A stretch of DNA of 64,000 nt from an uncultured Bacteroidota bacterium. GTDB taxonomy: Bacteria > Bacteroidota > Bacteroidia > Flavobacteriales > Flavobacteriaceae. A model generated the notes under the pieces. That model was not told the origin of the DNA. It saw only the letters and a program-made list of their open reading frames with translations, and searched no databases. Shown here piece after piece: positions 1 to 17,758 of this stretch (positions are counted from its first letter, which is position 1; every line of letters begins with the position of its first letter). The position numbers were made by a program, and so were the translations under genes. The DNA lies in assembly GCA_902512065.1 (NCBI GenBank), contig CABXHU010000002.1, positions 88,035-152,034 of the forward strand. The letters are read 5' to 3'.

Positions 1-149
1 AGATAAAAACGATAAAATGAGCCAACACTATTTCATCTTCTTACAATTATAAATATTAAGTTTTTCTGAAAACGAATAAGAAAGTTTAGATTTTCTTACA
101 AAGTATTACAGAATCTCCTTTAAACTTGTAGATTAGCAAAGAAAATAAT

Positions 150-167
150 AATTCGGAATTCCGAACT
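150..167. repeat. 18-bp palindromic motif copy 1 (AATTCGGAATTCCGAACT), abutting the start codon of ORF 169-1281
   Basis: Read directly. TTCGGAATTCCGAA is a perfect 14-bp palindrome. It shares 16/18 positions with the copy at 4486-4503 and the CCGAACT half-site with 3481-3498. Confidence 0.7.
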
Positions 168-168
168 T

Positions 169-1281
169 ATGAAGCAGATTAGAATTTTAGTAATTCCAAA
201 TATCACTAATAGTAGAGATATTGAATCAGATAGTTTTTTTGATGTATTATTTCAACAGATAAACCAATTGGGAAATGACTTCTTTTGGATTGTACCAACC
301 ATTAAACAAAGTAAAAGAATAGGAGGGTTTAACAATGTTTTACAGATACCAATTGATATGAGTGGTAATATGTTCCATATGAGAGTAAATATGCCCTTAG
401 AACTCATTAAAATACTTCAAACATCAACACTAAATAAGAACAGAACCAATGATAAATTCTATGTAGAGTATGATATTGTGTATTCTCACTTGATGGATTG
501 GAATATTAGAAGATATGTACCAACTAAAAAGAAGATAATCGGTTATGCTCATTGGTGGGAAGGTTCATATTGTAATGGGTTATCAAATTTTAATAATCAT
601 TTGAATTTTGAAAGAGAAATATTAGGAACATTACAAACGGAAATCTGTTTTGTAAATACATTGGCACAAAAGAAAAGGGTTATTGAAGAGGCAAAGAAAA
701 CCTTTAATGAATCTATAATATCTCAATTAGAAAACATTATACAAGTCTATCATTTATCCATACCAAAAGAATCGATTAAAGAACCATCAGATAGTAGATA
801 TCGAATGATAACATTCAATCACCGTACAACCACATATAAAGGGTTTCCGAAATTTATGAAATGGATGAATGAGTTTAGAGATATCCGTACGGATTTTGAG
901 TTGTGGATTCCCCTAGCTGATAAAAAATATGATGAACATTGGATTGATACATCTTCCTATAGTAAAATGAAATATTTGGATAGGTTATCTAAATCATTGG
1001 TTTGTGTAGTTCCAAAGGATAAACACTTTGGTTGGAGTATTAGTGGAACTGATTCAATGATGGTTGGTACGCCTACACTATTTGAGGAATCTGATAACTA
1101 TAGAGAGATATTTCCGAAGGGTTTATTTTATTCGAATAAGAGAGAGTTTTTCTCCATAATGAATAATCTATTAGATGATTCCAAATATGTTAAGGAATGG
1201 GGTTTAAAATCGATTAGAAGGGCAAAAGAATTGAGTAATAATAAGAGTATTCAGTTGTTAAGGGAAAATCTTTTGGTTTAA
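169..1281 (+). CDS. Hypothetical protein, possibly a GT-B (double Rossmann) glycosyltransferase-like fold; cargo of the mobile element
   Basis: 370-aa ORF. The N-terminus MKQIRILVIPN resembles the beta1 strand of GT-B enzymes. The C-terminal block HFGWSISGTDSMMVGTPTLFEESDNYREIF resembles the GT4/GT-B nucleotide-sugar binding region (E-FG-x-EAM-x-G-PV) but lacks the canonical glutamates. The fold call is weak. Confidence 0.55.
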   Translation: MKQIRILVIPNITNSRDIESDSFFDVLFQQINQLGNDFFWIVPTIKQSKRIGGFNNVLQIPIDMSGNMFHMRVNMPLELIKILQTSTLNKNRTNDKFYVEYDIVYSHLMDWNIRRYVPTKKKIIGYAHWWEGSYCNGLSNFNNHLNFEREILGTLQTEICFVNTLAQKKRVIEEAKKTFNESIISQLENIIQVYHLSIPKESIKEPSDSRYRMITFNHRTTTYKGFPKFMKWMNEFRDIRTDFELWIPLADKKYDEHWIDTSSYSKMKYLDRLSKSLVCVVPKDKHFGWSISGTDSMMVGTPTLFEESDNYREIFPKGLFYSNKREFFSIMNNLLDDSKYVKEWGLKSIRRAKELSNNKSIQLLRENLLV

Positions 1282-3467
1282 TCTTCGGTTTCCATAATTT
1301 GAAGGGATTTCCCTCTATTAGCTAACCAACTTCTCAAAGTTTGTTCATCCATCTCTTCGTACCAATAGAACTCATTATCTAACCTACCTTCTGACTTGAG
1401 TTTTTGATATCTCTTTATCGCTTTTGGTTTCCACCATTTTAATATCTTTTCAATCGATATATCTTTCTTTTCCAATTTACTTTCATCGATATTACCGTTA
1501 AGGAAATCTTTAGTATTCTTATACAATTCACAGAAATAAACACCTTTCTCATTCAGATGGAAATAATCGGATTTCTTTAATCCTAAATAATCAAAGATTT
1601 TCCCCATTAATTGTTGTTTAGGGCCCGTTTGAACACCTCCACTTGGTGAAAACATAGATTTGTTGTAATCCTCCATATTATTTTGTTTCAACCAATTCAA
1701 CCAATACGAATAAATGTTTGCTGTTGGGTTTAGTATTACTTTACCTTTTGTTCTACCTAATTTTTTCAAATTAGGTATTCCATTATATGTTGAATTAGTA
1801 CCAAATAGAGCTGTGGTAGTAATTCCTACTAACACATCACCATATCTTTCCTTCCAATCGTTTTGAATTCTATCGGTAAAAGATAGTGATGCTATCAATT
1901 TCGTGCCTAAGAAGTTATATCCTAAAACGGATGTGGAAACTAATGTTGGTGTGATAGCTGTGTGGTTAATCTTCTTTTCTGAAACCTTCATTGAATTACT
2001 CCATCCAATCTTTTTATCTCTAACATCGATATGCATAATATCAGAACCTACCACAATCATTCCTAATATCTTTTTTGTTGGTTTATCAACTACCAAATAT
2101 TTTAGATTACGGCCAGGATTTGGATTCCACTGCATCGAAGATGTATATATTCTTATGGCATTGAAAAAGGATTTATCTTTTGGTGGTTCTTCCAAATAAG
2201 GTTCTAATGATTCGATTTCTTTAATCGTTTGTTTCTCATTACTAATATCGGCTGGTTTCCATAATGATTTTAATGCCTTCTTTCTTACTTCTATAGGGAT
2301 ATTCGTTCCTTCAATCTCATCAAATTTCTCATATACTAATAATTCCCTCATTGTTAGAGACTTCTTAAAATCTAAATCTTTGATTAACTCACTTCTCTTT
2401 TTATCTAACTCATTTAACTTGGATTCATCAAATGAAATGGTTTTATATTTCCCTAATGTTATTTCGCTCATTAAACTGAAAGGATAGGTATTTTGAATCG
2501 TATCAATTAACTCATCAACTGATACTTTGGGAAGGTTTCGTTTGATTGGTACTGTATAATCATTATCGGTTTTTCCTTTTTGTTTTTTAGATTTGATTAC
2601 AGATGGTAAAGAGTTGTATGCCTTTTCAACACTTATCGTTCCCATTGGGTTCACCTTCAATAATTTTATCTCTTCAATCAATTTGGGATTCTCTTTATAA
2701 ACCTTATACCATTTCCAAGCTGTATCCTTATTGATTCCAAAATCTTTAGCAATTGTTTGAACTACATTGATACTATCAGTTTTACCTCTACCGCCTAACT
2801 TCTGATATAGGTTTTTATCTAATTCATCAAATTCTCTTTTGAATATACTTTTGTTTTTTTCCCTCTGTTTGTTGAAATGAATGATAGCAAGGATATCGTT
2901 ATCAAACTCAACAATTCTTATAGGTACAGATTCAATACCAACAGATTTACAGGCGAACCATCTCCTATGCCCACTAATAATTTGTTTAGTTGGATTTACA
3001 ACGATAGGTTCTAATATTCCATATTTCTTAATGGATTCAATAAAATCGTTTCTTAAATCTTTATCCTCCGATTCAAAAGGTTCATAAATTTCATAGTTGT
3101 AGGGGTGGGGTTTAATGCTATCAATAGGAACTTCCGTTATTTCGAAATTATCGAATGTAGGTTGAGAATCCTTTTCAATATTTGTAATAAGGTTAACTAC
3201 TGAAATTTTCTTTGGGTTCAATTTCTTTTCTATTTCTAAATTCTCGCCACCATCTACCCATCCATCACCTTTTAATTTAACGGATGTTACTTGATTCATT
3301 TTTCCTTTAGCTAATTTAATAGCTTCCTTTTCGGTAATCTTACCATCCTCAATACCTTTTAAAAGATTAGGATGTTTATCTAATAACTTTTTATTCATTT
3401 TAGATTCTAACTCCCTTTTCTTTTTTGAGAATTCTTTTCGCTTTCGTTTGTGTTTTTCGTAATCCAT
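1278..3467 (-). CDS. ParB/Srx-like N-terminal domain, HTH and DUF4338-like (DruA-type) C-terminal domain fusion protein
   Basis: 729-aa ORF. Residues 112-186 carry IDSIKPHPYN, YGILEPIVV and ISGHRRWFACKSVG, the last being the ParB GxxRxxA arginine patch. Residues 238-256 are HTH-like (TIAKDFGINKDTAWKWYKV). Residues ~436-580 carry GRNLKYLV, VRDKKIGWS, DWKERYG and GRTKGK, which match my recollection of the DUF4338 consensus blocks. Confidence 0.7.
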   Translation of the reverse strand: MDYEKHKRKRKEFSKKKRELESKMNKKLLDKHPNLLKGIEDGKITEKEAIKLAKGKMNQVTSVKLKGDGWVDGGENLEIEKKLNPKKISVVNLITNIEKDSQPTFDNFEITEVPIDSIKPHPYNYEIYEPFESEDKDLRNDFIESIKKYGILEPIVVNPTKQIISGHRRWFACKSVGIESVPIRIVEFDNDILAIIHFNKQREKNKSIFKREFDELDKNLYQKLGGRGKTDSINVVQTIAKDFGINKDTAWKWYKVYKENPKLIEEIKLLKVNPMGTISVEKAYNSLPSVIKSKKQKGKTDNDYTVPIKRNLPKVSVDELIDTIQNTYPFSLMSEITLGKYKTISFDESKLNELDKKRSELIKDLDFKKSLTMRELLVYEKFDEIEGTNIPIEVRKKALKSLWKPADISNEKQTIKEIESLEPYLEEPPKDKSFFNAIRIYTSSMQWNPNPGRNLKYLVVDKPTKKILGMIVVGSDIMHIDVRDKKIGWSNSMKVSEKKINHTAITPTLVSTSVLGYNFLGTKLIASLSFTDRIQNDWKERYGDVLVGITTTALFGTNSTYNGIPNLKKLGRTKGKVILNPTANIYSYWLNWLKQNNMEDYNKSMFSPSGGVQTGPKQQLMGKIFDYLGLKKSDYFHLNEKGVYFCELYKNTKDFLNGNIDESKLEKKDISIEKILKWWKPKAIKRYQKLKSEGRLDNEFYWYEEMDEQTLRSWLANRGKSLQIMETED

Positions 3468-3480
3468 ATTAAAAAAGAAT

Positions 3481-3498
3481 AGTTCGGTTTTCCGAACT
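3481..3498. repeat. 18-bp palindromic motif copy 2 (AGTTCGGTTTTCCGAACT), 14 nt upstream of the ParB-DUF4338 gene start
   Basis: Perfect 7-bp inverted arms AGTTCGG/CCGAACT separated by TTTT. The half-site is the same as in copies 1 and 3. Confidence 0.7.
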
Positions 3499-3850
3499 CT
3501 TCAAATTTAGTAAAAAGAATTAGTATGTTTTTTCTATACTGTAAAAATTTGTTTGCTATAAATTAACGATACCGAGCCAGATTTAAGAAAAAAACTTTTC
3601 CCTAGATGCAAGTAACCTCTTGGGGTATATATACGGATGCTTTTTCCCAATATAAGGTACTTAAAATTCCTGAGAAAATCAAGGAATAATCAATGTTTAT
3701 AGGGTATTAAGAGTTGATTTTTATACATTTTAGATGTATACCTTAAAGAGTGAGTTTGAAATTCAAAAAAACATCAAAATAACCCGAAAAATAGTTGCCT
3801 GATACACAAAATTGAAGTAACTTCACTATGAAATCAAAAAAGTGTAAAAA

Positions 3851-4486
3851 ATGAGAATATTAAGATACAATCGTTGTTCTACTTTAGAACAAAATTTAGA
3901 TTATCAGAAGAAATCTGAGGAATCTGTTAAATATGCATATGTTTTCGATGAATATGAGAGTGGGATGCAGAACTTGTTTAGCAGAAAAAAAGGTTCAATC
4001 GTAAAAGAATTGGTACTTGAAAAAAAAATTGATGAAATCAGCATCTATTCAGTAGATAGAATTAGTAGGAGTATAGCTGATTTGTGTAGTATTATAGATT
4101 TTCTTCATAGTAATGGAGTTTCTCTATCAATTGAAAATTTAGGTGTAAAATCGTTGGTAGAAGGTAAGGAAACACCTGCAATTATGTTTTTAATTCATCT
4201 TCAATCCGCATTTTCACAAATGAATTACTACGATAGGAGAGAAAAACAACTCGCTGGGATTGAGAGAGCAAAATTAAAAGGGGTATATAAAAACAGAAAA
4301 TTGAGAGGAAAAGAAACATTAGATAATTGGATTAAGAAACCGAAGATTAGAAAAGCAATAGAAATAATTAAGATGAATCCAAAGATGAGGAATTGTGATA
4401 TCGCTAAGGTATCAGAGTTACATTACAATACAATTAGAAAGATTAGAGAGAAAATGGAGATACCTAAAATGGAGGTGGCTGTATAA
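3851..4486 (+). CDS. Serine recombinase (resolvase/invertase family)
   Basis: The N-terminus MRILRYNRCSTLEQNLDYQ fits the resolvase catalytic motif Y-x-R-x-S-x-x-x-Q. It also has a DRISRS motif and a C-terminal HTH-like segment (NCDIAKVSELHYNTIRKI). Size is 211 aa. Confidence 0.8.
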   Translation: MRILRYNRCSTLEQNLDYQKKSEESVKYAYVFDEYESGMQNLFSRKKGSIVKELVLEKKIDEISIYSVDRISRSIADLCSIIDFLHSNGVSLSIENLGVKSLVEGKETPAIMFLIHLQSAFSQMNYYDRREKQLAGIERAKLKGVYKNRKLRGKETLDNWIKKPKIRKAIEIIKMNPKMRNCDIAKVSELHYNTIRKIREKMEIPKMEVAV

Positions 4487-4503
4487 AACCGGAATTCCGA
4501 ACT
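4486..4503. repeat. 18-bp motif copy 3 (AAACCGGAATTCCGAACT), between the convergent stops of the two recombinase genes
   Basis: CGGAATTCCGAACT is identical to copy 1. It begins on the last base of the resolvase stop codon and ends 3 nt before the integrase stop. Confidence 0.7.
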
Positions 4504-4505
4504 CT

Positions 4506-6254
4506 TTATTGTTCGATTCTATTTTTATTTAATATGGTTTTTAATCTATTAGTTAATAAGGTTTCTCTACCACTTTCAATATCCAATCTCTTATAATACA
4601 TCATCATTGTTTGCATCGTATGGCCAACAATTTCACATAATTCCATCGGTTCTACACCTTCTCTTCTTACCATATATGAAATAAAGTTTTTTCGAAGGTG
4701 GTGTGAGGAAGTTATATTTCTAAATTTCCAGCCTAATCCATTTTCTATTACTTCTGTATGTAAACCTTTTTTTCTTTTTCTTACCACTTTGGTAGTTCCT
4801 TTGTTTACCATCTTCAACTTGAATAGATTCAAATAATAGTTGGTTTGTAATGGTTGGTTTGGTTTCTTTTTGAAATTTGGTGAGGAAAACAAATAGTATG
4901 ATTTAGGCCATAGATACATACAAACATCGATAATATTCGTTTCATATCGAAAGTCCTTCTTACCATCCTTAGTTTCAAACTCAACCTTATATCCTAATCC
5001 CTTTGGAGGTTTATGATGGAAGCTCCAAATCGTTTCATCAATAGGAACTATTCTATTTTTATGTTTAGAGTTAAGGATATAGAATAGATAAAGGTTTTTA
5101 TCTTTTTTATCTTTTGTAAAATATGAACGCATATTTACATCTGTTACATTGGATTTTATCATATCCTCTTTACTTCTAAATGATTTTAGAATTTCCCCAA
5201 TCCTAAAACCATATCTTAATTGTAATAAAGAAATAAAATAAACTATATCAACACCTATTGGATAATCAGATGGTTGATTTCTGTGAGGTTTCTTTCCTAA
5301 TGTAGAATCTTCATCTACTTTCGGATTATAGGTTGTTCGTAGTTGTTCCGTTTCTCCTTTATGTTTACAAACAGATATCCATTTCTCTCTAACTATTTCA
5401 ACACATTCCTTAACACACTTCAAATAATCTTCTTTATAGAACAATACCATATCATTCTTATCTTCAGGCGGTACATAATCTTTGTAATATTTCTTTATTA
5501 GTTCTATTTGAAAATCTACTGTAAATGGGTGATAATCGAACAATTCCAATCCATCTAATGATTTTTTTCTTACTAACCAATCACAAAAAAATCTAACACT
5601 CCTCAAATAATTCTTTGCGGTAGGCCTCCTAATAGTTTCACCTTTTTCAGAATTTAGGTATCCTTTTTTCTTACCGAACTCTAATGTATATTCCAAATAA
5701 TCTTTCACAACAGTTGTTAACGATGAAGTAGGTACAACACTAATAGGGATTTTATTGGTTTTACAATATTCATAAAACCCTCTAATATGAATTAATCTAT
5801 TCTTAACTGTAGTTTTATTTCTCTTTATTACTTTGATATTCTTATCATCTATTAACTTGAATTTCTTTATATCAAAATAATACCCTCCATCTGAGGAATG
5901 TTTTGTTATATACTCTAAAATGAATTCAGATAACAGATGAGAATTTTTAGTTTTGATTCTATAACCGGATTGGATTTTTATTTTAAGTTTTTCAAAAGCA
6001 TACTGAAATGATGTTTGATTATATTCTATATCTTTTGGTTCAGTACTACATAGATATTTGAATCTACTTTTACCTTTTGATAAAACATAATACCAAAAGA
6101 ATTTACCATTAACCTTTTTTATTATAAACGAACCCATCTTTTCGGGCGTATCAAAAATATCTTGGTTGGTTCTTATTAGAGCTTCCTCCAAAGATTTACT
6201 CCATCCATTGAGAGTTCTTAATTTATCTTGTGCCCATTTTGGAGTAATTCCCAT
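4506..6254 (-). CDS. Tyrosine recombinase / phage-type integrase with a long N-terminal extension
   Basis: The C-terminal catalytic signature is present: RYGFRIGE (Arg I), HHLRKNF (H-x-x-R) and VGHTMQTMMMYYKRL (His/Tyr). At 582 aa it is well above the usual 350-420 aa. Confidence 0.8.
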   Translation of the reverse strand: MGITPKWAQDKLRTLNGWSKSLEEALIRTNQDIFDTPEKMGSFIIKKVNGKFFWYYVLSKGKSRFKYLCSTEPKDIEYNQTSFQYAFEKLKIKIQSGYRIKTKNSHLLSEFILEYITKHSSDGGYYFDIKKFKLIDDKNIKVIKRNKTTVKNRLIHIRGFYEYCKTNKIPISVVPTSSLTTVVKDYLEYTLEFGKKKGYLNSEKGETIRRPTAKNYLRSVRFFCDWLVRKKSLDGLELFDYHPFTVDFQIELIKKYYKDYVPPEDKNDMVLFYKEDYLKCVKECVEIVREKWISVCKHKGETEQLRTTYNPKVDEDSTLGKKPHRNQPSDYPIGVDIVYFISLLQLRYGFRIGEILKSFRSKEDMIKSNVTDVNMRSYFTKDKKDKNLYLFYILNSKHKNRIVPIDETIWSFHHKPPKGLGYKVEFETKDGKKDFRYETNIIDVCMYLWPKSYYLFSSPNFKKKPNQPLQTNYYLNLFKLKMVNKGTTKVVRKRKKGLHTEVIENGLGWKFRNITSSHHLRKNFISYMVRREGVEPMELCEIVGHTMQTMMMYYKRLDIESGRETLLTNRLKTILNKNRIEQ

Positions 6255-6265
6255 CTATTTTTGTT

Positions 6266-6348
6266 GTTGGTAAAAACTCTAATTTAATGAAATTATATCA
6301 AAATTTGATAAAATTCAAAAGAAATTTGTTGGTAAATCGTTGGTAAAT
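6266..6348 (+). repeat. Three direct copies of GTTGGTAAA (6266-6274, 6328-6336, 6339-6347) just upstream of the integrase start
   Basis: Read directly. Their position next to the int gene is compatible with arm-type integrase binding sites, but the motif is short. Confidence 0.3.
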
Positions 6349-6662
6349 GAAATATTCAGTTTTTTAGAAATCTTTGTTATCCTCTGTTAAATAAGGATTT
6401 TGGAGGTAATTAACAACGACCATAAGAGTTTATGTAAAGCGATTTTTCCACTTTTTTAGAACTATCTTGATTTTTTAAAATTGTAGACTCACCATTATAT
6501 AGGTATGGGTTTTTTTCTACTTTTTTTAAATCGTTACTCATTATCTATAATATAAATATAGTCTGCAAATATATTAAAAATACGCCAATTTGTCATGTTT
6601 TTTAGTATGATCTCATTAAATGCACGATTTTCATGTATTATATGGATATTAAAAAATTCTTC

Positions 6663-6670
6663 TACATTTG
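6663..6670 (+). promoter_or_regulatory. Bacteroidota -7 promoter box TAcaTTTG upstream of topA
   Basis: Matches the TAnnTTTG consensus. It ends 20 nt upstream of the ATG at 6690. Confidence 0.45.
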
Positions 6671-6689
6671 TACATCTTAATTAAAAAAA

Positions 6690-9140
6690 ATGGCAAAGAA
6701 TTTAGTAATAGTTGAGTCTCCAGCAAAAGCAAAAACAATAGAGAAATTTTTGGGAAATGATTTTAAGGTAGCTTCAAGTTTTGGTCACATATCTGATTTA
6801 CCTTCTAAAGATCTTGGTGTAGATGTAGAGGGGGATTTTAAACCTAAATATGAAGTATCAAAAGATAAAAAGAGTGTAGTTAAGAACCTTAAAGATTTAG
6901 CTAATAAATCTGAAACAATATGGTTAGCTAGTGATGAGGACCGTGAGGGAGAGGCAATTGCATGGCATTTATTTAGACTATTAAAGCTAGAGGAAAGTAA
7001 TACAAAACGTATTGTTTTTAATGAAATTACAAAATCTGCTATTCAAAAGGCAATTGATAATCCTAGATCAATAGATTACAATCTTGTTGATGCTCAACAG
7101 GCTAGAAGAGTTTTAGATAGAATTGTTGGATATGAATTATCACCAGTTTTATGGCGAAAAATTAAGAGCGGGCTGTCTGCAGGACGAGTTCAATCAGTAT
7201 CAGTTAGATTAATAGTTGAAAAGGAAAGAGAGATTAAAGGCTTTAATTCTGAAAGTAGTTATAGGGTTGATGCTGAATTTATAACAAAAAATGGAAAAAA
7301 TTTAAAGGCAAAACTTGAAAAAACATTTAATAATAAGGAGAGTGCTCAAAGTTTTTTAAAGAAAAATATAGATTCTAGTTTTTCAGTGGAAAGTTTAGAG
7401 AAAAAACCCTTAAAAAAATCTCCTTCTGCTCCATTTACTACTTCTACATTGCAACAGGAGGCATCTAGAAAATTGTATTTTTCTGTATCAAAGACAATGA
7501 CTGTAGCACAAAGGTTATATGAGTCAGGCCTAATAACATATATGAGAACTGATAGCGTAAATCTTTCGAATTTAGCTAAGGATTCTGCTAAAGATCATAT
7601 TGTAAAAAATTATGGAAATCAATATTCTAGCACAAAATCATATAAAACAAAGTCTAAAGGCGCACAGGATGCTCATGAAGCAATCAGACCAACAGACTTT
7701 TCAATGATAGGAGATAATATTGCAGATAATGATCAAAAAAGATTATATCAATTAATTTGGAAAAGAACTATTGCGTCTCAAATGACTGATGCTGCTTTAG
7801 AAAAAACAAATGTTAAAATAAAATCCTCTAATCATGAAATTTTATTTGCTTCAACGGGTCAAATAGTCAAATTTGACGGGTTTTTAAAAGTCTATTCTGA
7901 AGTAAAGGGCGATGAAGTCGAAGAAGATAATTCTATTTTACCTAAAGTTGATTTGAATGAAGATTTAAAGTTTACTTATATCAGGGCTAATCAGAGATTT
8001 TCTAGACCTCCATTTAGATATACGGAAGCATCATTAGTAAAAAAACTAGAAGATTTAGGAATTGGAAGGCCTTCAACTTACGCACCTACTATATCTACAA
8101 TTCAAAATAGAGGATATGTAGAAAAAGGAACTGTAGAAGGAGAAAAAAGAGATTATATACAATTAATTCTAGAAAATAATAAAATTATTGAAAACACGCT
8201 ACAGGAAAAAGTGGGTTCAGATAAGGGAAAATTAGTTCCAACAGATATAGGAATGATTGTAACGGACTTTTTAATAAATCATTTTGAAAACATTATGGAT
8301 TATAATTTTACGGCTAGTGTTGAAAAAGATTTTGATAATATAGCCGATGGTAAACAAGAATGGACATCAATGATGAAGGAATTTTACAAAAAATTTCATC
8401 CTGTAGTAGAAGATGTGAGTAAAAATGCTGAAAGGGAATCGGGAAAAAGGATATTGGGAGTTCATCCTGAAAATAAAAAAGAAATAAGTGTTAGATTAGG
8501 AAAATTTGGACCAATGATTCAAATTGGGACTGTTGAGGATGAGGAAAAACCTGTTTTTGCAAGTTTGCCCCCTGAAATGCAGATTGAGTCAGTGACATTA
8601 GAGCAGGCGCTTGATTTGTTTTCCTTGCCTAGGGAATTAGGAGAGTATAATAACGAAGTCATTTTAGCTAACAATGGAAGGTATGGACCATATGTAAAAT
8701 ATGGGAAAAAATTTGTTTCAATCCCAAAAGGGAAGTCTCCATTGTCCATTTCAATTGAAGAAGCCGTGGAGTTTATAAAGATTAAGGAAAAATCAGAAGC
8801 ACCAATATATAATTATGAGGGATTAGATGTACAAAAAGGTAAAGGGAAGTTTGGGCCATTTATTAAGTGGAATAATATGTTTATCAACGTTGGAAAAAAA
8901 TATGATTGGGATAACTTATCTGAAAATGACATTATTGAGCTTATTGAGGATAAAAAGAAAAAAGAAAAGGAGAAGCTTATTCATAACTGGTCAGATGAAA
9001 ATATAAGAGTTGAAAAGGGGAAATGGGGTAAAATATATATTATTAAGGGAAAAATTAGAAAAGAATTATCTAAATCGATTGATCCAAAAGAATTAACTCT
9101 TGATGATGCTATAAAAATACTAGATAATAAAAAAGAATAG
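6690..9140 (+). CDS. topA: DNA topoisomerase I
   Basis: N-terminal Toprim segment MAKNLVIVESPAKAKTIEKFLG. Contains DEDREGEAIAWH and the active-site region LITYMRTDS. The lysine-rich C-terminal repeats are typical of Bacteroidota TopA. Confidence 0.95.
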   Translation: MAKNLVIVESPAKAKTIEKFLGNDFKVASSFGHISDLPSKDLGVDVEGDFKPKYEVSKDKKSVVKNLKDLANKSETIWLASDEDREGEAIAWHLFRLLKLEESNTKRIVFNEITKSAIQKAIDNPRSIDYNLVDAQQARRVLDRIVGYELSPVLWRKIKSGLSAGRVQSVSVRLIVEKEREIKGFNSESSYRVDAEFITKNGKNLKAKLEKTFNNKESAQSFLKKNIDSSFSVESLEKKPLKKSPSAPFTTSTLQQEASRKLYFSVSKTMTVAQRLYESGLITYMRTDSVNLSNLAKDSAKDHIVKNYGNQYSSTKSYKTKSKGAQDAHEAIRPTDFSMIGDNIADNDQKRLYQLIWKRTIASQMTDAALEKTNVKIKSSNHEILFASTGQIVKFDGFLKVYSEVKGDEVEEDNSILPKVDLNEDLKFTYIRANQRFSRPPFRYTEASLVKKLEDLGIGRPSTYAPTISTIQNRGYVEKGTVEGEKRDYIQLILENNKIIENTLQEKVGSDKGKLVPTDIGMIVTDFLINHFENIMDYNFTASVEKDFDNIADGKQEWTSMMKEFYKKFHPVVEDVSKNAERESGKRILGVHPENKKEISVRLGKFGPMIQIGTVEDEEKPVFASLPPEMQIESVTLEQALDLFSLPRELGEYNNEVILANNGRYGPYVKYGKKFVSIPKGKSPLSISIEEAVEFIKIKEKSEAPIYNYEGLDVQKGKGKFGPFIKWNNMFINVGKKYDWDNLSENDIIELIEDKKKKEKEKLIHNWSDENIRVEKGKWGKIYIIKGKIRKELSKSIDPKELTLDDAIKILDNKKE

Positions 9141-16789: not shown

Positions 16790-17758
16790 TTAAATATCAC
16801 CCTTCAAACATCTTGTGAAAAAAGGAAAATCATCTGTAACTACGTAGTAATAGATACCTTCAGGAAATTCTGGTGTTACACCATAGCGTCCATTACATTG
16901 ATCTAAATCACCTAGTCCGTCAACATATTCATAATCTTGTGTGAATGCTCCCATTTGAATAGGTATATTTGGATTAGTTGTCCCTTGACCAGGACCTCCA
17001 ACTAAAGCGGTCAATGTACTTGGTCGATTGGGGTCAGGTTGACTTTTCAATCTATAGCTCGGTTGTAACGTTTTAACTTGACTAGTAGAATCATCAGCAT
17101 TTGAATAACCATATCTTGCATACACAGGAAAACCATCTGATGCCCACCCTACGATGGTCATACCCTGATTATCTCCCAAAAAATCAATAAGTAATTCAGG
17201 GATACCATGGTAATGATATTCCCCATTAGGTTGAACATGAGCATGGTTCATATCATCTCCAAAATTAAAAGTGTCGTGCCCTAATGCTTCAATATTCCAA
17301 TTCCCTTGACATTGTGCTAAACAACACTCACCCTCATCATTACATTTCCCTGCAGTTGCAGGATCAAATTTGACACTATTTAAAGCATAAGCAATAGCCG
17401 AACCAGGACCACCTACTTCTAATCCACTTTCAGAAACTATTATAGGGCAAAGTGTAAAACTCTCATTTACAGTTTGTTCACTTATAGTGTTTGGATTACC
17501 GTTGTTTGGAAATGTTCCAACCTCATGATTTGGAATTCCATTTCCATTTAGAATTCTGTCATACCCATCAGATGACCAGGAATATCTGCTATAATTGTTA
17601 ATTGATTCATCATCATTGTAGATTTCTTCATTAATATCAACTAATATACCAGCAGTCGAATAATCTCCTGAACAATCAATATTATTTTGTTCTTGGGAAT
17701 CTTCTTTTGTACTGCACGAAAAAGAAATAATTAGAATTAGTAAAATGATTTTTTTCAT
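16790..17758 (-). CDS. YHYH-domain lipoprotein
   Basis: Lipobox ISFSCS. Contains the HAHVQPNGEYHYHG signature of the YHYH protein family. Confidence 0.7.
   Translation of the reverse strand: MKKIILLILIISFSCSTKEDSQEQNNIDCSGDYSTAGILVDINEEIYNDDESINNYSRYSWSSDGYDRILNGNGIPNHEVGTFPNNGNPNTISEQTVNESFTLCPIIVSESGLEVGGPGSAIAYALNSVKFDPATAGKCNDEGECCLAQCQGNWNIEALGHDTFNFGDDMNHAHVQPNGEYHYHGIPELLIDFLGDNQGMTIVGWASDGFPVYARYGYSNADDSTSQVKTLQPSYRLKSQPDPNRPSTLTALVGGPGQGTTNPNIPIQMGAFTQDYEYVDGLGDLDQCNGRYGVTPEFPEGIYYYVVTDDFPFFTRCLKGDI

What the first reader, a model, noticed from the sequence alone, without database searches (positions are those of the whole stretch)
150..4503. Three copies of an 18-bp palindromic motif (AGTTCGG-N4-CCGAACT) punctuate the element at gene boundaries
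The three copies are 150-167 AATTCGGAATTCCGAACT (ending 1 nt before the ORF1 ATG), 3481-3498 AGTTCGGTTTTCCGAACT (14 nt upstream of the ParB-DUF4338 start) and 4486-4503 AAACCGGAATTCCGAACT (between the convergent recombinase stops). Copies 1 and 3 share 16/18 positions, and all three share TTCCGAACT. This GC-rich 9-mer is unlikely to recur three times in 4.4 kb of ~28% GC DNA, and I did not notice it elsewhere in the window. There are two non-exclusive readings. One is that these are parS-like loading or operator sites for the ParB-like protein, since canonical parS is a 16-bp palindrome. The other is that they are crossover sites for the 211-aa serine recombinase. Copies 1 and 3 lie in direct orientation judged by the asymmetric flanks, which would excise a ~4.3-kb circle carrying both cargo genes and the resolvase. 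The stems have too little loop to act as terminators.
Basis: partly seen in the sequence, partly recalled or inferred. Interest (0 to 1): 0.68.

Follow-up and report, generated by a model that had tools for sequence, protein, structure and literature searches.

The report
Binding sites for a ParB-like protein
The three palindromes are real and are most likely the private DNA-binding sites (operators) of a ParB-like protein fused to a DruA domain, carried on a small integrative element of a Bacteroidota genome; they are probably not recombination sites.

Summary
TTCCGAACT occurs three times in 64 kb, against 0.16 expected. All three copies lie in the first 4.5 kb, in intergenic DNA, inside 18-bp near-palindromes.

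About 22 related elements from metagenomes carry their own palindrome at the same places. One copy always lies just upstream of the ParB-DruA gene, next to a Bacteroidetes -7 promoter box. A second copy usually lies in the gap between the resolvase operon and the tyrosine recombinase gene.

Five palindrome types were found, and each goes with a different recognition helix in the ParB-DruA helix-turn-helix. Seventeen relatives share one helix and one palindrome. The window differs from its closest relative (65% identical) mainly in that helix, and all three of its palindromes are replaced.

The resolvase helix does not track the motif. The central bases differ between copies of one element. The integrase att site lies elsewhere, at about 6420. 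So crossover sites and a 4.3-kb excision circle are not supported.

Best reading: KorB/parS-like operator or loading sites for ParB-DruA (confidence about 0.6). This is a new variant of a known kind.

The parts
150..167 (.). Palindrome copy 1 (AATTCGGAATTCCGAACT). It abuts the start codon of ORF1, a glycosyltransferase-like gene, and is a putative operator in the ORF1 leader.
   Evidence: The orthologous position in L001 (6746-6770) holds a different palindrome.
3481..3498 (.). Palindrome copy 2 (AGTTCGGTTTTCCGAACT), with perfect 7-nt arms, 13 nt upstream of the ParB-DruA start. This position is conserved in all relatives of the clade.
3502..3509 (-). Perfect Bacteroidetes-type -7 promoter box TAAATTTG (read on the minus strand). 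It ends 3 nt before copy 2, so the predicted transcription start falls at the edge of the palindrome.
   Evidence: 15 of 17 elements scanned (16 relatives plus the window) have a TAnnTTTG-like box (0-1 mismatch) starting 10-14 nt before the palindrome core. The consensus itself comes from prior knowledge of Bacteroidetes promoters.
4486..4503 (.). Palindrome copy 3 (AAACCGGAATTCCGAACT). The left arm is degenerate and the right half-site is perfect. It lies in the 19-nt gap between the convergent resolvase and tyrosine-recombinase stop codons.
   Evidence: The same position is occupied in L001, L006/7, L015, L017-23, L026, L027 and L034.
1278..3467 (-). ParB-DruA gene (729 aa): an N-terminal helical extension, a ParB N-terminal (CTPase-fold) domain, an HTH, and a C-terminal DruA/DUF4338 (GNAT-like) domain. 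This is the proposed binder of the palindromes.
   Evidence: Pfam ParB_N 3e-11 and DruA 2e-20. PDB phmmer hits ParB 6T1F, Noc and Spo0J. Foldseek hits Noc, ParB and KorB, with weak GNAT hits.
2691..2777 (-). Region encoding the helix-turn-helix (residues 231-259). The recognition helix is KDTAWKWYKVYKE.
   Evidence: AF2 secondary structure: H231-243, turn, H247-259. This region has the lowest identity to L001 (0.20-0.25) where relatives are 0.89 conserved. It is unique among 138 family sequences.
169..1281 (+). ORF1 (370 aa), a glycosyltransferase-like partner gene. It is convergent with ParB-DruA, and the two stop codons overlap by 4 nt.
   Evidence: (weak Glycos_transf_1 in the L001 orthologue).
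3851..4486 (+). Small serine recombinase (resolvase/invertase type, 211 aa).
   Evidence: Pfam Resolvase 2.8e-16. PHROG DNA invertase.
4506..6254 (-). Tyrosine recombinase (582 aa), the integrase of the element.
   Evidence: Weak Phage_integrase hit. 65% identical to the L034 576-aa protein. Homologues sit at the junction of integrated copies.
6410..6426 (+). Probable att core and right boundary of the integrated element (TTAACAACGACCATAAG). It resembles the attP of the circular relative L021 (AACAACCATAACATTC) at the same distance upstream of the integrase gene.
   Evidence: The boundary is inferred by similarity and position. The left end of the element is off-window.

Best explanation
The three palindromes are the cognate DNA-binding sites of the element's own ParB-DruA protein. 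A dimer would bind the two 7-nt half-sites through the helix-turn-helix that follows its ParB N-terminal domain.

The site at 3481-3498 lies immediately downstream of the -7 box of the ParB-DruA promoter, so binding there would autorepress the gene. The site abutting the ORF1 start would control the glycosyltransferase-like partner gene. The site in the resolvase/integrase gap would be a third binding, loading or roadblock site.

By analogy with KorB, Noc and ParB, nucleotide binding by the N-terminal domain may turn the bound dimer into a clamp. That clamp could spread from these sites and carry the GNAT-like DruA domain over the element's DNA.

Shown here: the sites are real, positionally conserved, element-specific, and change together with the HTH recognition helix. 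Inferred: binding, repression, and clamp behaviour.
For: 1. Positional conservation with sequence replacement. L001 has the same gene order as the window (ParB-DruA 65%, ORF1 63%, resolvase 80% identical). It carries CATAAGAACAAATTTGTTC(C/T)TATG at exactly the three orthologous positions. The flanks still align (-7 box, ATGGATTACGAA start, about 110 nt upstream of the resolvase gene).
2. All 17 relatives in the clade with visible upstream DNA have GAACAA-WW-TTGTTC directly upstream of ParB-DruA. In the 17 elements scanned (16 relatives plus the window), 15 have a TAnnTTTG-like box starting 10-14 nt before the core.
3. Helix and motif change together in five classes: SRGSATKLYKI with GAACAA..TTGTTC (17 elements, both invariant); NKDTAWKWYKV with AGTTCGG-N4-CCGAACT (window); SRTSASYLLQI with AGTTCAA-N3-TTGAACT (L034, 2 copies); SRTNSVILFRI with TGGACAGAATCTGTCCA (L035, 2 identical copies); SRTSASILLMI with AGTTCGGAATTCGTACG (L028).
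4. In a sliding window against L001, identity is lowest (0.20-0.25) at residues 231-260, the HTH. This is among the most conserved stretches in the relatives (0.89).
5. The segment is an HTH equivalent to the ParB DNA-binding domain. The phmmer alignment to Caulobacter ParB 6T1F runs into the first HTH helix. AF2 gives helix-turn-helix at 231-259. Foldseek aligns about 200-230 columns to Noc, ParB and KorB structures that include the DNA-binding domain.
6. SG(H)RR, N199 and R202 are invariant across 17 diverse family members. From memory of the ParB literature, these correspond to ParB boxes II and III.
7. Window copy 3 keeps a perfect half-site but a poor stem. The arms are invariant across lineages with 46-55% protein identity while the central W bases vary. 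That is the pattern of a dimeric protein site rather than a mere hairpin.
Against: No binding data exist.

The loci were found by ParB-DruA homology, so its constant presence is partly ascertainment.

Helix-to-motif mapping is not one-to-one. The window and L028 share the half-site AGTTCGG but have very different helices.

The window's tyrosine recombinase is closest (65%) to that of L034, whose half-site AGTTCAA resembles the window's. A link to that protein is therefore not fully excluded.

A small HTH_17 (Xis-like) protein present in relatives would lie off the left edge of the window and could not be compared.

The structure model is poor overall (pLDDT 55).

More distant family members in a prophage-like element and a phage (L029, L032) show no clear palindrome upstream.

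Why one copy so consistently sits at the 3' end of the integrase/resolvase genes is not explained.
Confidence: 0.6

Rival explanations
1. The palindromes are crossover sites for the 211-aa serine recombinase (or core sites for the tyrosine recombinase). They would allow inversion or deletion of the modules they flank, for example excision of 150-4503 or inversion of the ORF1/ParB-DruA pair.
For: One copy is almost always next to the resolvase-operon and integrase stop codons. PHROGs calls the resolvase a DNA invertase. The ParB-DruA/ORF1 pair is inverted relative to the resolvase/integrase pair in the window, L001 and L003 compared with L018-L026, and in the window and L001 that pair is flanked by two copies. 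In L019, L021 and L026 the two copies are exact reverse complements at the centre (AAAATT / AATTTT).
Against: The resolvase recognition helix does not track the motif. The window, L001 and L035 share (L)HYN(T/S)IRK with three different palindromes. L003 and L034 share NKNTITKIKKH with two different palindromes.

L003/L014 and L005 have the resolvase but only one copy.

Central bases differ between copies in the window (TT versus AT), L006, L020, L022 and L034. Both recombinase families need identical overlap regions.

The type-1 palindrome occurs with unrelated integrases: L001 is 21% identical, and L022, L023 and L027 have no homologue of the window's tyrosine recombinase.

The true att core is elsewhere.

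Seven-nt arms with a 0-4 nt spacer are short for either recombinase family.
Confidence: 0.08
2. The palindromes act as nucleic-acid hairpins without a dedicated protein. Copy 3 would be a bidirectional terminator between convergent genes. Copies 1 and 2 would be 5'-leader stem-loops or attenuators.
For: The consensus scan flags copies 1 and 2 on the minus strand as hairpin plus T-run, and finds a terminator-like hairpin at 4498-4515 that overlaps copy 3. Predicted stems are -6 to -12 kcal/mol with z-scores of -1.6 to -4.5. Palindromes in relatives often extend to 24-32 nt.
Against: Copies 1 and 2 lie at the 5' ends of divergent genes, not at 3' ends.

The predicted transcription start falls inside the palindrome, so in most relatives the RNA would lack a full left arm (inference).

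There is no reason for three hairpins in one element to share one sequence and be replaced together.

The arms are invariant across distant lineages, with no compensatory changes.

Window copy 3 has lost pairing but keeps a perfect half-site.

L006 has a separate GC-rich hairpin next to its copy.
Confidence: 0.12
3. The palindromes are operators for a different element-encoded DNA-binding protein, such as the small HTH_17/Xis-like protein seen in relatives. ParB-DruA would only be a regulated target.
For: Relatives encode a 64-68-aa HTH_17 protein (L021 529-723, L003 10880-11086). In the window its gene would lie beyond the left edge, so covariation could not be tested.
Against: The sharp, localised divergence of the ParB-DruA HTH, coinciding with replacement of all three sites, would then be coincidence. 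The site is tied to the ParB-DruA start in every arrangement, whatever the neighbouring genes are.
Confidence: 0.12

Closest known systems
KorB and its OB operators on plasmid RK2 (ParB-CTPase family repressor and sliding clamp; PMC11790492, PDB 8QA8/8QA9)
   Same: Both have a ParB N-terminal domain followed by an HTH. Both have several copies of a short palindrome on a mobile element, some at promoters and some distal. Autoregulation is the likely role. KorB structures are among the Foldseek hits.
   Different: The C-terminus here is a DruA/DUF4338 GNAT-like domain instead of a dimerisation domain. No KorA, IncC or ParA partner is present. The host is Bacteroidota. There are only 1-3 sites per element. 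Nucleotide binding and sliding are untested.
Chromosomal ParB/parS and Noc/NBS
   Same: The sites are 14-18-bp palindromes with 7-8-nt half-sites, recognised by an HTH next to a CTPase-fold domain. The best PDB sequence and fold matches belong to these proteins. SG(H)RR, N199 and R202 are invariant in the family.
   Different: There is no ParA and no sign of a segregation role. Box II is GHRRWFA rather than GERRxRA, and the box III glutamate is replaced (FNKQRE). An enzymatic-type domain is fused.
DndB-type ParB-like repressors and R-M controller (C) proteins with C-box operators
   Same: A regulator encoded next to DNA-modification or restriction cargo binds a palindrome at its own promoter. 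The partner genes here are a glycosyltransferase-like gene, or N6_N4 methylase plus MvaI/BcnI-like or MmeI-like R-M genes. DndB is described as a ParB-like repressor in PMC12704722.
   Different: C proteins are small Xre-type HTH proteins. DndB has no DruA domain. Homology to either was not tested here.
DruA of type I Druantia
   Same: The C-terminal 300 residues match Pfam DruA and PADLOC DruA models.
   Different: No DruB-E genes are nearby. Here DruA is fused to ParB_N plus an HTH and paired with a glycosyltransferase-like gene on an integrative element.
hix/gix/res sites of small serine recombinases
   Same: They are imperfect palindromes with an A/T-rich centre near a resolvase/invertase gene.
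   Different: Covariation with the recombinase HTH, identical central dinucleotides and the two-site requirement were all tested and not met.

Membership tests
ParB-CTPase-fold DNA-binding proteins with palindromic sites (ParB/parS, KorB/OB, Noc/NBS) | ParB N-terminal (sulfiredoxin-like) domain with a box II GxRR motif and box III | tested here: met
   Pfam ParB_N 3e-11. phmmer hits 6T1F, 7OL9 and 6SDK. S165, G166, R168, R169, N199 and R202 are invariant in 17 family members. Foldseek hits Noc, ParB and KorB. Box II is GHRRWFA and box III is FNKQRE, so they are not canonical at every position.
ParB-CTPase-fold DNA-binding proteins with palindromic sites (ParB/parS, KorB/OB, Noc/NBS) | Helix-turn-helix DNA-binding domain directly after the N-terminal domain | tested here: met
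   AF2 gives H231-243, turn, H247-259 with pLDDT 63-80. The alignment to 6T1F reaches the first HTH helix. Foldseek alignments of 200-230 columns cover the N-terminal and DNA-binding domains of the targets. Model quality is moderate only.
ParB-CTPase-fold DNA-binding proteins with palindromic sites (ParB/parS, KorB/OB, Noc/NBS) | Cognate short palindromic site(s) near its own gene or on its own replicon | tested here: met
   Element-specific palindromes occur in 1-3 copies, one always upstream of the gene.
ParB-CTPase-fold DNA-binding proteins with palindromic sites (ParB/parS, KorB/OB, Noc/NBS) | Sequence-specific binding of the protein to the site; NTP-dependent clamping or spreading | not testable with these tools
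   Only covariation of the recognition helix with the motif is available.
ParABS partition systems | Partner ParA ATPase and a C-terminal ParB dimerisation domain | tested here: not met
   No ParA-like gene appears in the window element or in complete circular relatives. The C-terminus is DruA.
Serine-recombinase crossover sites (res site I, hix, gix) | At least two sites per element with an identical central 2-bp overlap | tested here: not met
   The window has TT (copy 2) versus AT (copies 1 and 3). L006, L020, L022 and L034 also differ. L003/L014 and L005 have a single copy.
Serine-recombinase crossover sites (res site I, hix, gix) | Half-site sequence matched to the recombinase's C-terminal HTH | tested here: not met
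   The same start of the recognition helix (LHYNTIRK) is found in the window and L001 with unrelated palindromes. Different helices go with the same palindrome.
Tyrosine-integrase att sites | Site lies at the junction between element and chromosome and is duplicated at both ends | tested here: not met
   Comparing circular L021 with integrated L026 places the core CCATAAC(A/T)TTCAATAT about 150 nt upstream of the integrase gene. The palindromes are internal.
Intrinsic (rho-independent) terminators | Stable stem-loop followed by a U-run at the 3' end of a transcription unit | tested here: inconclusive
   The copy 3 region has a terminator-like hairpin at 4498-4515. Copies 1 and 2 are flagged only on the strand opposite to, or upstream of, the adjacent genes.
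REP-like dispersed genomic repeats | Similar density throughout the genome | tested here: not met
   No copy occurs in the other 59 kb of the window. The rest of the genome was not available.
Type I Druantia | DruA together with DruB-DruE (large DUF1998 helicase) | tested here: not met
   Only the DruA domain matches. The neighbours are a glycosyltransferase-like gene, a resolvase and an integrase.

The most novel reading that the evidence does not exclude
ParB-DruA is a nucleotide-gated DNA clamp that loads only at its element's private palindromes and spreads over the element. It would carry a GNAT-like DruA enzyme domain that works with the conserved glycosyltransferase-like (or methylase) partner to mark or protect 'self' DNA. 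The palindromes would be identity tags that diversify together with the recognition helix so that co-resident elements do not cross-talk. If true, this would give the first mechanistic handle on the DruA domain of Druantia and add an enzyme-delivering class to the ParB-CTPase family.
Probability: 0.15. Interest if true: 0.8.

Novelty: new variant of a known kind. Interest (0 to 1): 0.55.

Why it matters
ParB-family proteins that bind short palindromes and act as CTP-gated clamps or repressors are a current topic. The DruA domain has no known function. Here a ParB-HTH-DruA fusion is abundant in aquatic metagenomes (over 1,100 sequences at E below 1e-20). It comes with easily recognisable, element-specific candidate binding sites and with a natural specificity switch: the window against L001.

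That gives a cheap, direct experiment: EMSA or ChIP plus a helix swap. It also suggests how small integrative elements of Bacteroidota control their modification or defence cargo.

For annotation, these palindromes should not be read as recombination sites or as element ends.

Tried and rejected
- Exact look-up of the window's ParB-DruA protein found nothing on record, so the left flank of the element could not be recovered.
- A single-protein scan of genome contigs found nothing. The viral contig scan found nothing.
- Plasmid and phage collections hold only distant DruA-only or ParB-only relatives, for example in Pelagibacter and Synechococcus phages.
- Rfam at E up to 1 over 1-7000 gave no match, so there is no known RNA family in the 350-nt gap upstream of the resolvase gene.
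- Only one tRNA was found in the window, far from the element.
- PADLOC matched only DruA and methylase-associated ParB models.
- Alignment of the window's first 180 nt with the regions beyond ORF1 in relatives was too poor to use.
- The AF2 model of the full protein is low confidence (pLDDT 55). I used only its secondary structure for the N-terminal half and the fold matches.
- Rarity of the 9-mer on its own is not a valid argument, because other rare 9-mers also recur.
- A partition (centromere) role was considered and set aside because no ParA is present.
- A target site for the associated R-M enzymes was considered and set aside because the palindrome is kept across elements with different or no R-M genes.
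- Literature searches for DUF4338, DruA and ParB+DruA found no description of this fusion or its sites.
Full report
**Observation**

TTCCGAACT occurs three times in the 64-kb window, all on the + strand at 159, 3490 and 4495. The expectation is 0.16, and no shuffle of 100 reaches three. A scan with the 18-mer allowing up to five mismatches finds no further convincing copy.

The count alone is not decisive, because other rare 9-mers also recur in this window. The three copies, however, lie within 4.4 kb, all in the 9% of the region that is intergenic, each inside a near-palindrome at a gene boundary.

**Genes**

- ORF1 (169-1281, +, 370 aa) has no Pfam hit. Its L001 orthologue has weak glycosyltransferase hits.
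- The 729-aa protein (1278-3467, -) has ParB_N and DruA/DUF4338 domains.
- 3851-4486 (+) encodes a small serine recombinase.
- 4506-6254 (-) encodes a 582-aa tyrosine recombinase.

The host is a member of Bacteroidota, because SusC/SusD-type genes lie further along the window.

**The family of elements**

Homologues of the ParB-DruA protein led to about 30 loci from marine and freshwater metagenomes and MAGs.

- L006 and L007 are exact rotations of one 8,033-bp sequence from two samples.
- L021, L022, L023 and L027 have 123-127-nt terminal overlaps. The family therefore includes 8.0-9.7-kb circular molecules.
- L026, L002 and L028 are copies integrated in long chromosomal contigs.

Comparing circular L021 with integrated L026 puts the att core, CCATAAC(A/T)TTCAATAT, about 150 nt upstream of the tyrosine recombinase gene. 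The window has a matching TTAACAACGACCATAAG at 6410-6426. The window therefore holds the right-hand 6.4 kb of an integrated element whose left end is off-window.

Relatives also encode a Xis-like HTH_17 protein. Depending on the element, they carry N6_N4 methylase plus MvaI/BcnI-like or MmeI-like restriction-modification genes.

**Palindromes in relatives**

L001 is the closest relative (ParB-DruA 65%, ORF1 63%, resolvase 80% identical) and has the same gene order. It has no TTCCGAACT. Instead it carries CATAAGAACAAATTTGTTC(C/T)TATG at the three orthologous positions: at the integrase stop, upstream of ParB-DruA, and abutting the ORF1 start.

The flanks are still alignable. These include the -7 box, the ATGGATTACGAA start, and about 110 nt upstream of the resolvase gene. 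All three sites have therefore been replaced in place.

All 17 relatives of this clade with visible upstream DNA have GAACAA-WW-TTGTTC ending 6-35 nt before the ParB-DruA start. Of the 17 elements scanned (16 relatives plus the window), 15 have a TAnnTTTG-like box (0-1 mismatch) beginning 10-14 nt before the core. The window has a perfect TAAATTTG. That TAnnTTTG is the Bacteroidetes -7 consensus is prior knowledge.

A second copy lies in the gap between the resolvase operon and the tyrosine recombinase in most elements, but is absent from L003/L014 and L005. A copy upstream of ORF1 occurs only in the window and L001.

In an outgroup clade (44% identity):

- L034 has AGTTCAATGTTTGAACT 15 nt before the gene and AGTTCAAAGTTTGAACT 12 nt after the stop of a tyrosine recombinase that is 65% identical to the window's.
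- L035 has two identical TGGACAGAATCTGTCCA copies.
- L028 has AGTTCGGAATTCGTACG.

All of these sit within conserved AAAAAATAA...TAATTAAAAA flanks. Two more distant members, in a prophage-like element and a phage, show no clear palindrome.

**Which protein reads the sites?**

The ParB-DruA protein matches solved ParB, Noc and Spo0J structures by sequence, and the alignment to 6T1F runs into the first helix of the ParB HTH. The AF2 model is poor overall (pLDDT 55) but gives helix 231-243, a turn, and helix 247-259. Its best structural matches are Noc, ParB-CDP/CTPgS and KorB over 200-230 columns, with weak GNAT matches for the C-terminus. The GNAT matches agree with the published GNAT assignment of DUF4338 (PMC10853773).

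The recognition helix is SRGSATK(L/I)Y(K/R) in every element with the GAACAA palindrome. It is NKDTAWKWYKV in the window, SRTSASYLLQI in L034, SRTSASILLMI in L028 and SRTNSVILFRI in L035.

Against L001, identity is lowest (0.20-0.25) exactly at residues 231-260, where the relatives are 0.89 conserved. The window's helix is unique among 138 family sequences.

The resolvase helix does not track the motif. The window, L001 and L035 share (L)HYN(T/S)IRK with three different palindromes. L003 and L034 share NKNTITKIKKH with two. The GAACAA palindrome also occurs with unrelated integrases.

**Other readings**

*Recombination.* Central bases differ between copies of one element in the window, L006, L020, L022 and L034. 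Some elements have a single copy. The att site is elsewhere. I therefore reject a conserved recombination role, including the 4.3-kb circle. The inverted orientation of the ParB-DruA/ORF1 pair in some lineages leaves a small residual chance of occasional inversion.

*Hairpins.* Stems are moderately stable and copies 1 and 2 look terminator-like on the minus strand. But they lie at the 5' ends of genes. The three sites of one element share a sequence and were replaced together. The arms are invariant across distant lineages. Copy 3 keeps a perfect half-site with a poor stem.

*Another binder.* A small DNA-binding protein encoded off-window cannot be excluded.

**Mechanism proposed**

A ParB-DruA dimer binds the 7-nt half-sites through its HTH. 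At 3481-3498 it overlaps the start of its own transcript and represses it. At 150-167 it controls ORF1. At 4486-4503 it provides a third binding, loading or roadblock site.

SG(H)RR, N199 and R202 are invariant in the family. NTP binding, and a KorB-like switch between sliding and repression (PMC11790492), is therefore plausible. This is inference only.

**Novelty**

A survey of ParB-CTPase fusions (PMC12704722) lists acetyltransferase and methyltransferase fusions but not DUF4338. Searches for DUF4338, DruA and ParB+DruA found no description of this protein or its sites. The family is large. I rate it a new variant of a known kind, of moderate interest.

Noticed in passing
L006 and L007 (whole loci); L021, L022, L023, L027: Two 8,033-bp contigs from different samples are exact rotations of each other. 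Four other contigs have 123-127-nt terminal overlaps. The ParB-DruA elements therefore also exist as 8.0-9.7-kb circles (plasmid-like or excised forms).
   Followed up: partly
window 6410-6426; L021 143-166; L026 about 8465-8490 and 17520-17545: The att core CCATAAC(A/T)TTCAATAT lies about 150 nt upstream of the tyrosine recombinase gene. The window has a matching TTAACAACGACCATAAG, which places the right end of the integrated element just before topA.
   Followed up: partly
window 1278-1281; L001 5612-5615; L021 3857-3860; L007 3661-3664: ParB-DruA and its partner gene (glycosyltransferase-like, or an N6_N4 methylase in L006/7) are convergent with stop codons overlapping by 4 nt in all close relatives. 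In the outgroup (L034, L028) a 27%-identical ORF1 homologue follows co-directionally. The two genes look like a conserved functional pair.
   Followed up: partly
window 169-3467 compared with L018-L026: The ORF1/ParB-DruA pair is inverted relative to the resolvase/integrase pair in the window, L001 and L003 compared with L018-L026. In the window and L001 the pair is flanked by two palindrome copies.
   Followed up: partly
window 3740-3850 and L001 3015-3125: About 110 nt upstream of the resolvase gene is well conserved between the window and L001, although the palindromes differ. It is a candidate for the resolvase promoter or the real res site.
   Followed up: no
L001 349-423 and 3190-3265: Two tRNA-Val(GAC) genes, 90% identical, bracket the integrase-resolvase module of L001. 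This suggests that the module was acquired separately, or tandem insertion at a tRNA gene.
   Followed up: no
window 5671-5682: An extra half-site, TTACCGAACTCT, lies inside the tyrosine recombinase gene. It shares CCGAACTCT with copies 2 and 3. This could be chance.
   Followed up: no
window 4498-4515: An alternative hairpin, CGAAC-N8-GTTCG followed by a T-run, reuses the right arm of copy 3. It is a possible terminator of the resolvase gene that would compete with the palindrome.
   Followed up: no
L018 3863, L019 4558, L020 4318, L021 4331, L022 3632, L026 12676, L027 4897: A palindrome-like GAACAATATTGTTC lies inside the glycosyltransferase-like gene of one sub-lineage, conserved among these close relatives.
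   Followed up: no
L021 1038-1466 (-): A 142-aa ORF next to the ParB-DruA promoter contains HIHILI and YITK motifs reminiscent of HUH rolling-circle Rep or relaxase proteins. It has no Pfam or PHROG hit.
   Followed up: partly
L002/L003 and L028: Elements from two ParB-DruA clades are integrated next to the same chromosomal neighbourhood (MiaB-like radical SAM, sigma-54 activator, LptE, SecG, GroES/EL). This points to a shared integration hotspot.
   Followed up: no
phage records MT647606, KC465899, S-PRM1, S-CAM9; L032/L033: Homologues of the DruA region (27-34% identical over query residues about 346-712) are encoded by Pelagibacter and Synechococcus phages. ParB-DruA fusions occur in a phage contig with gp32 and DNA ligase.
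   Followed up: no
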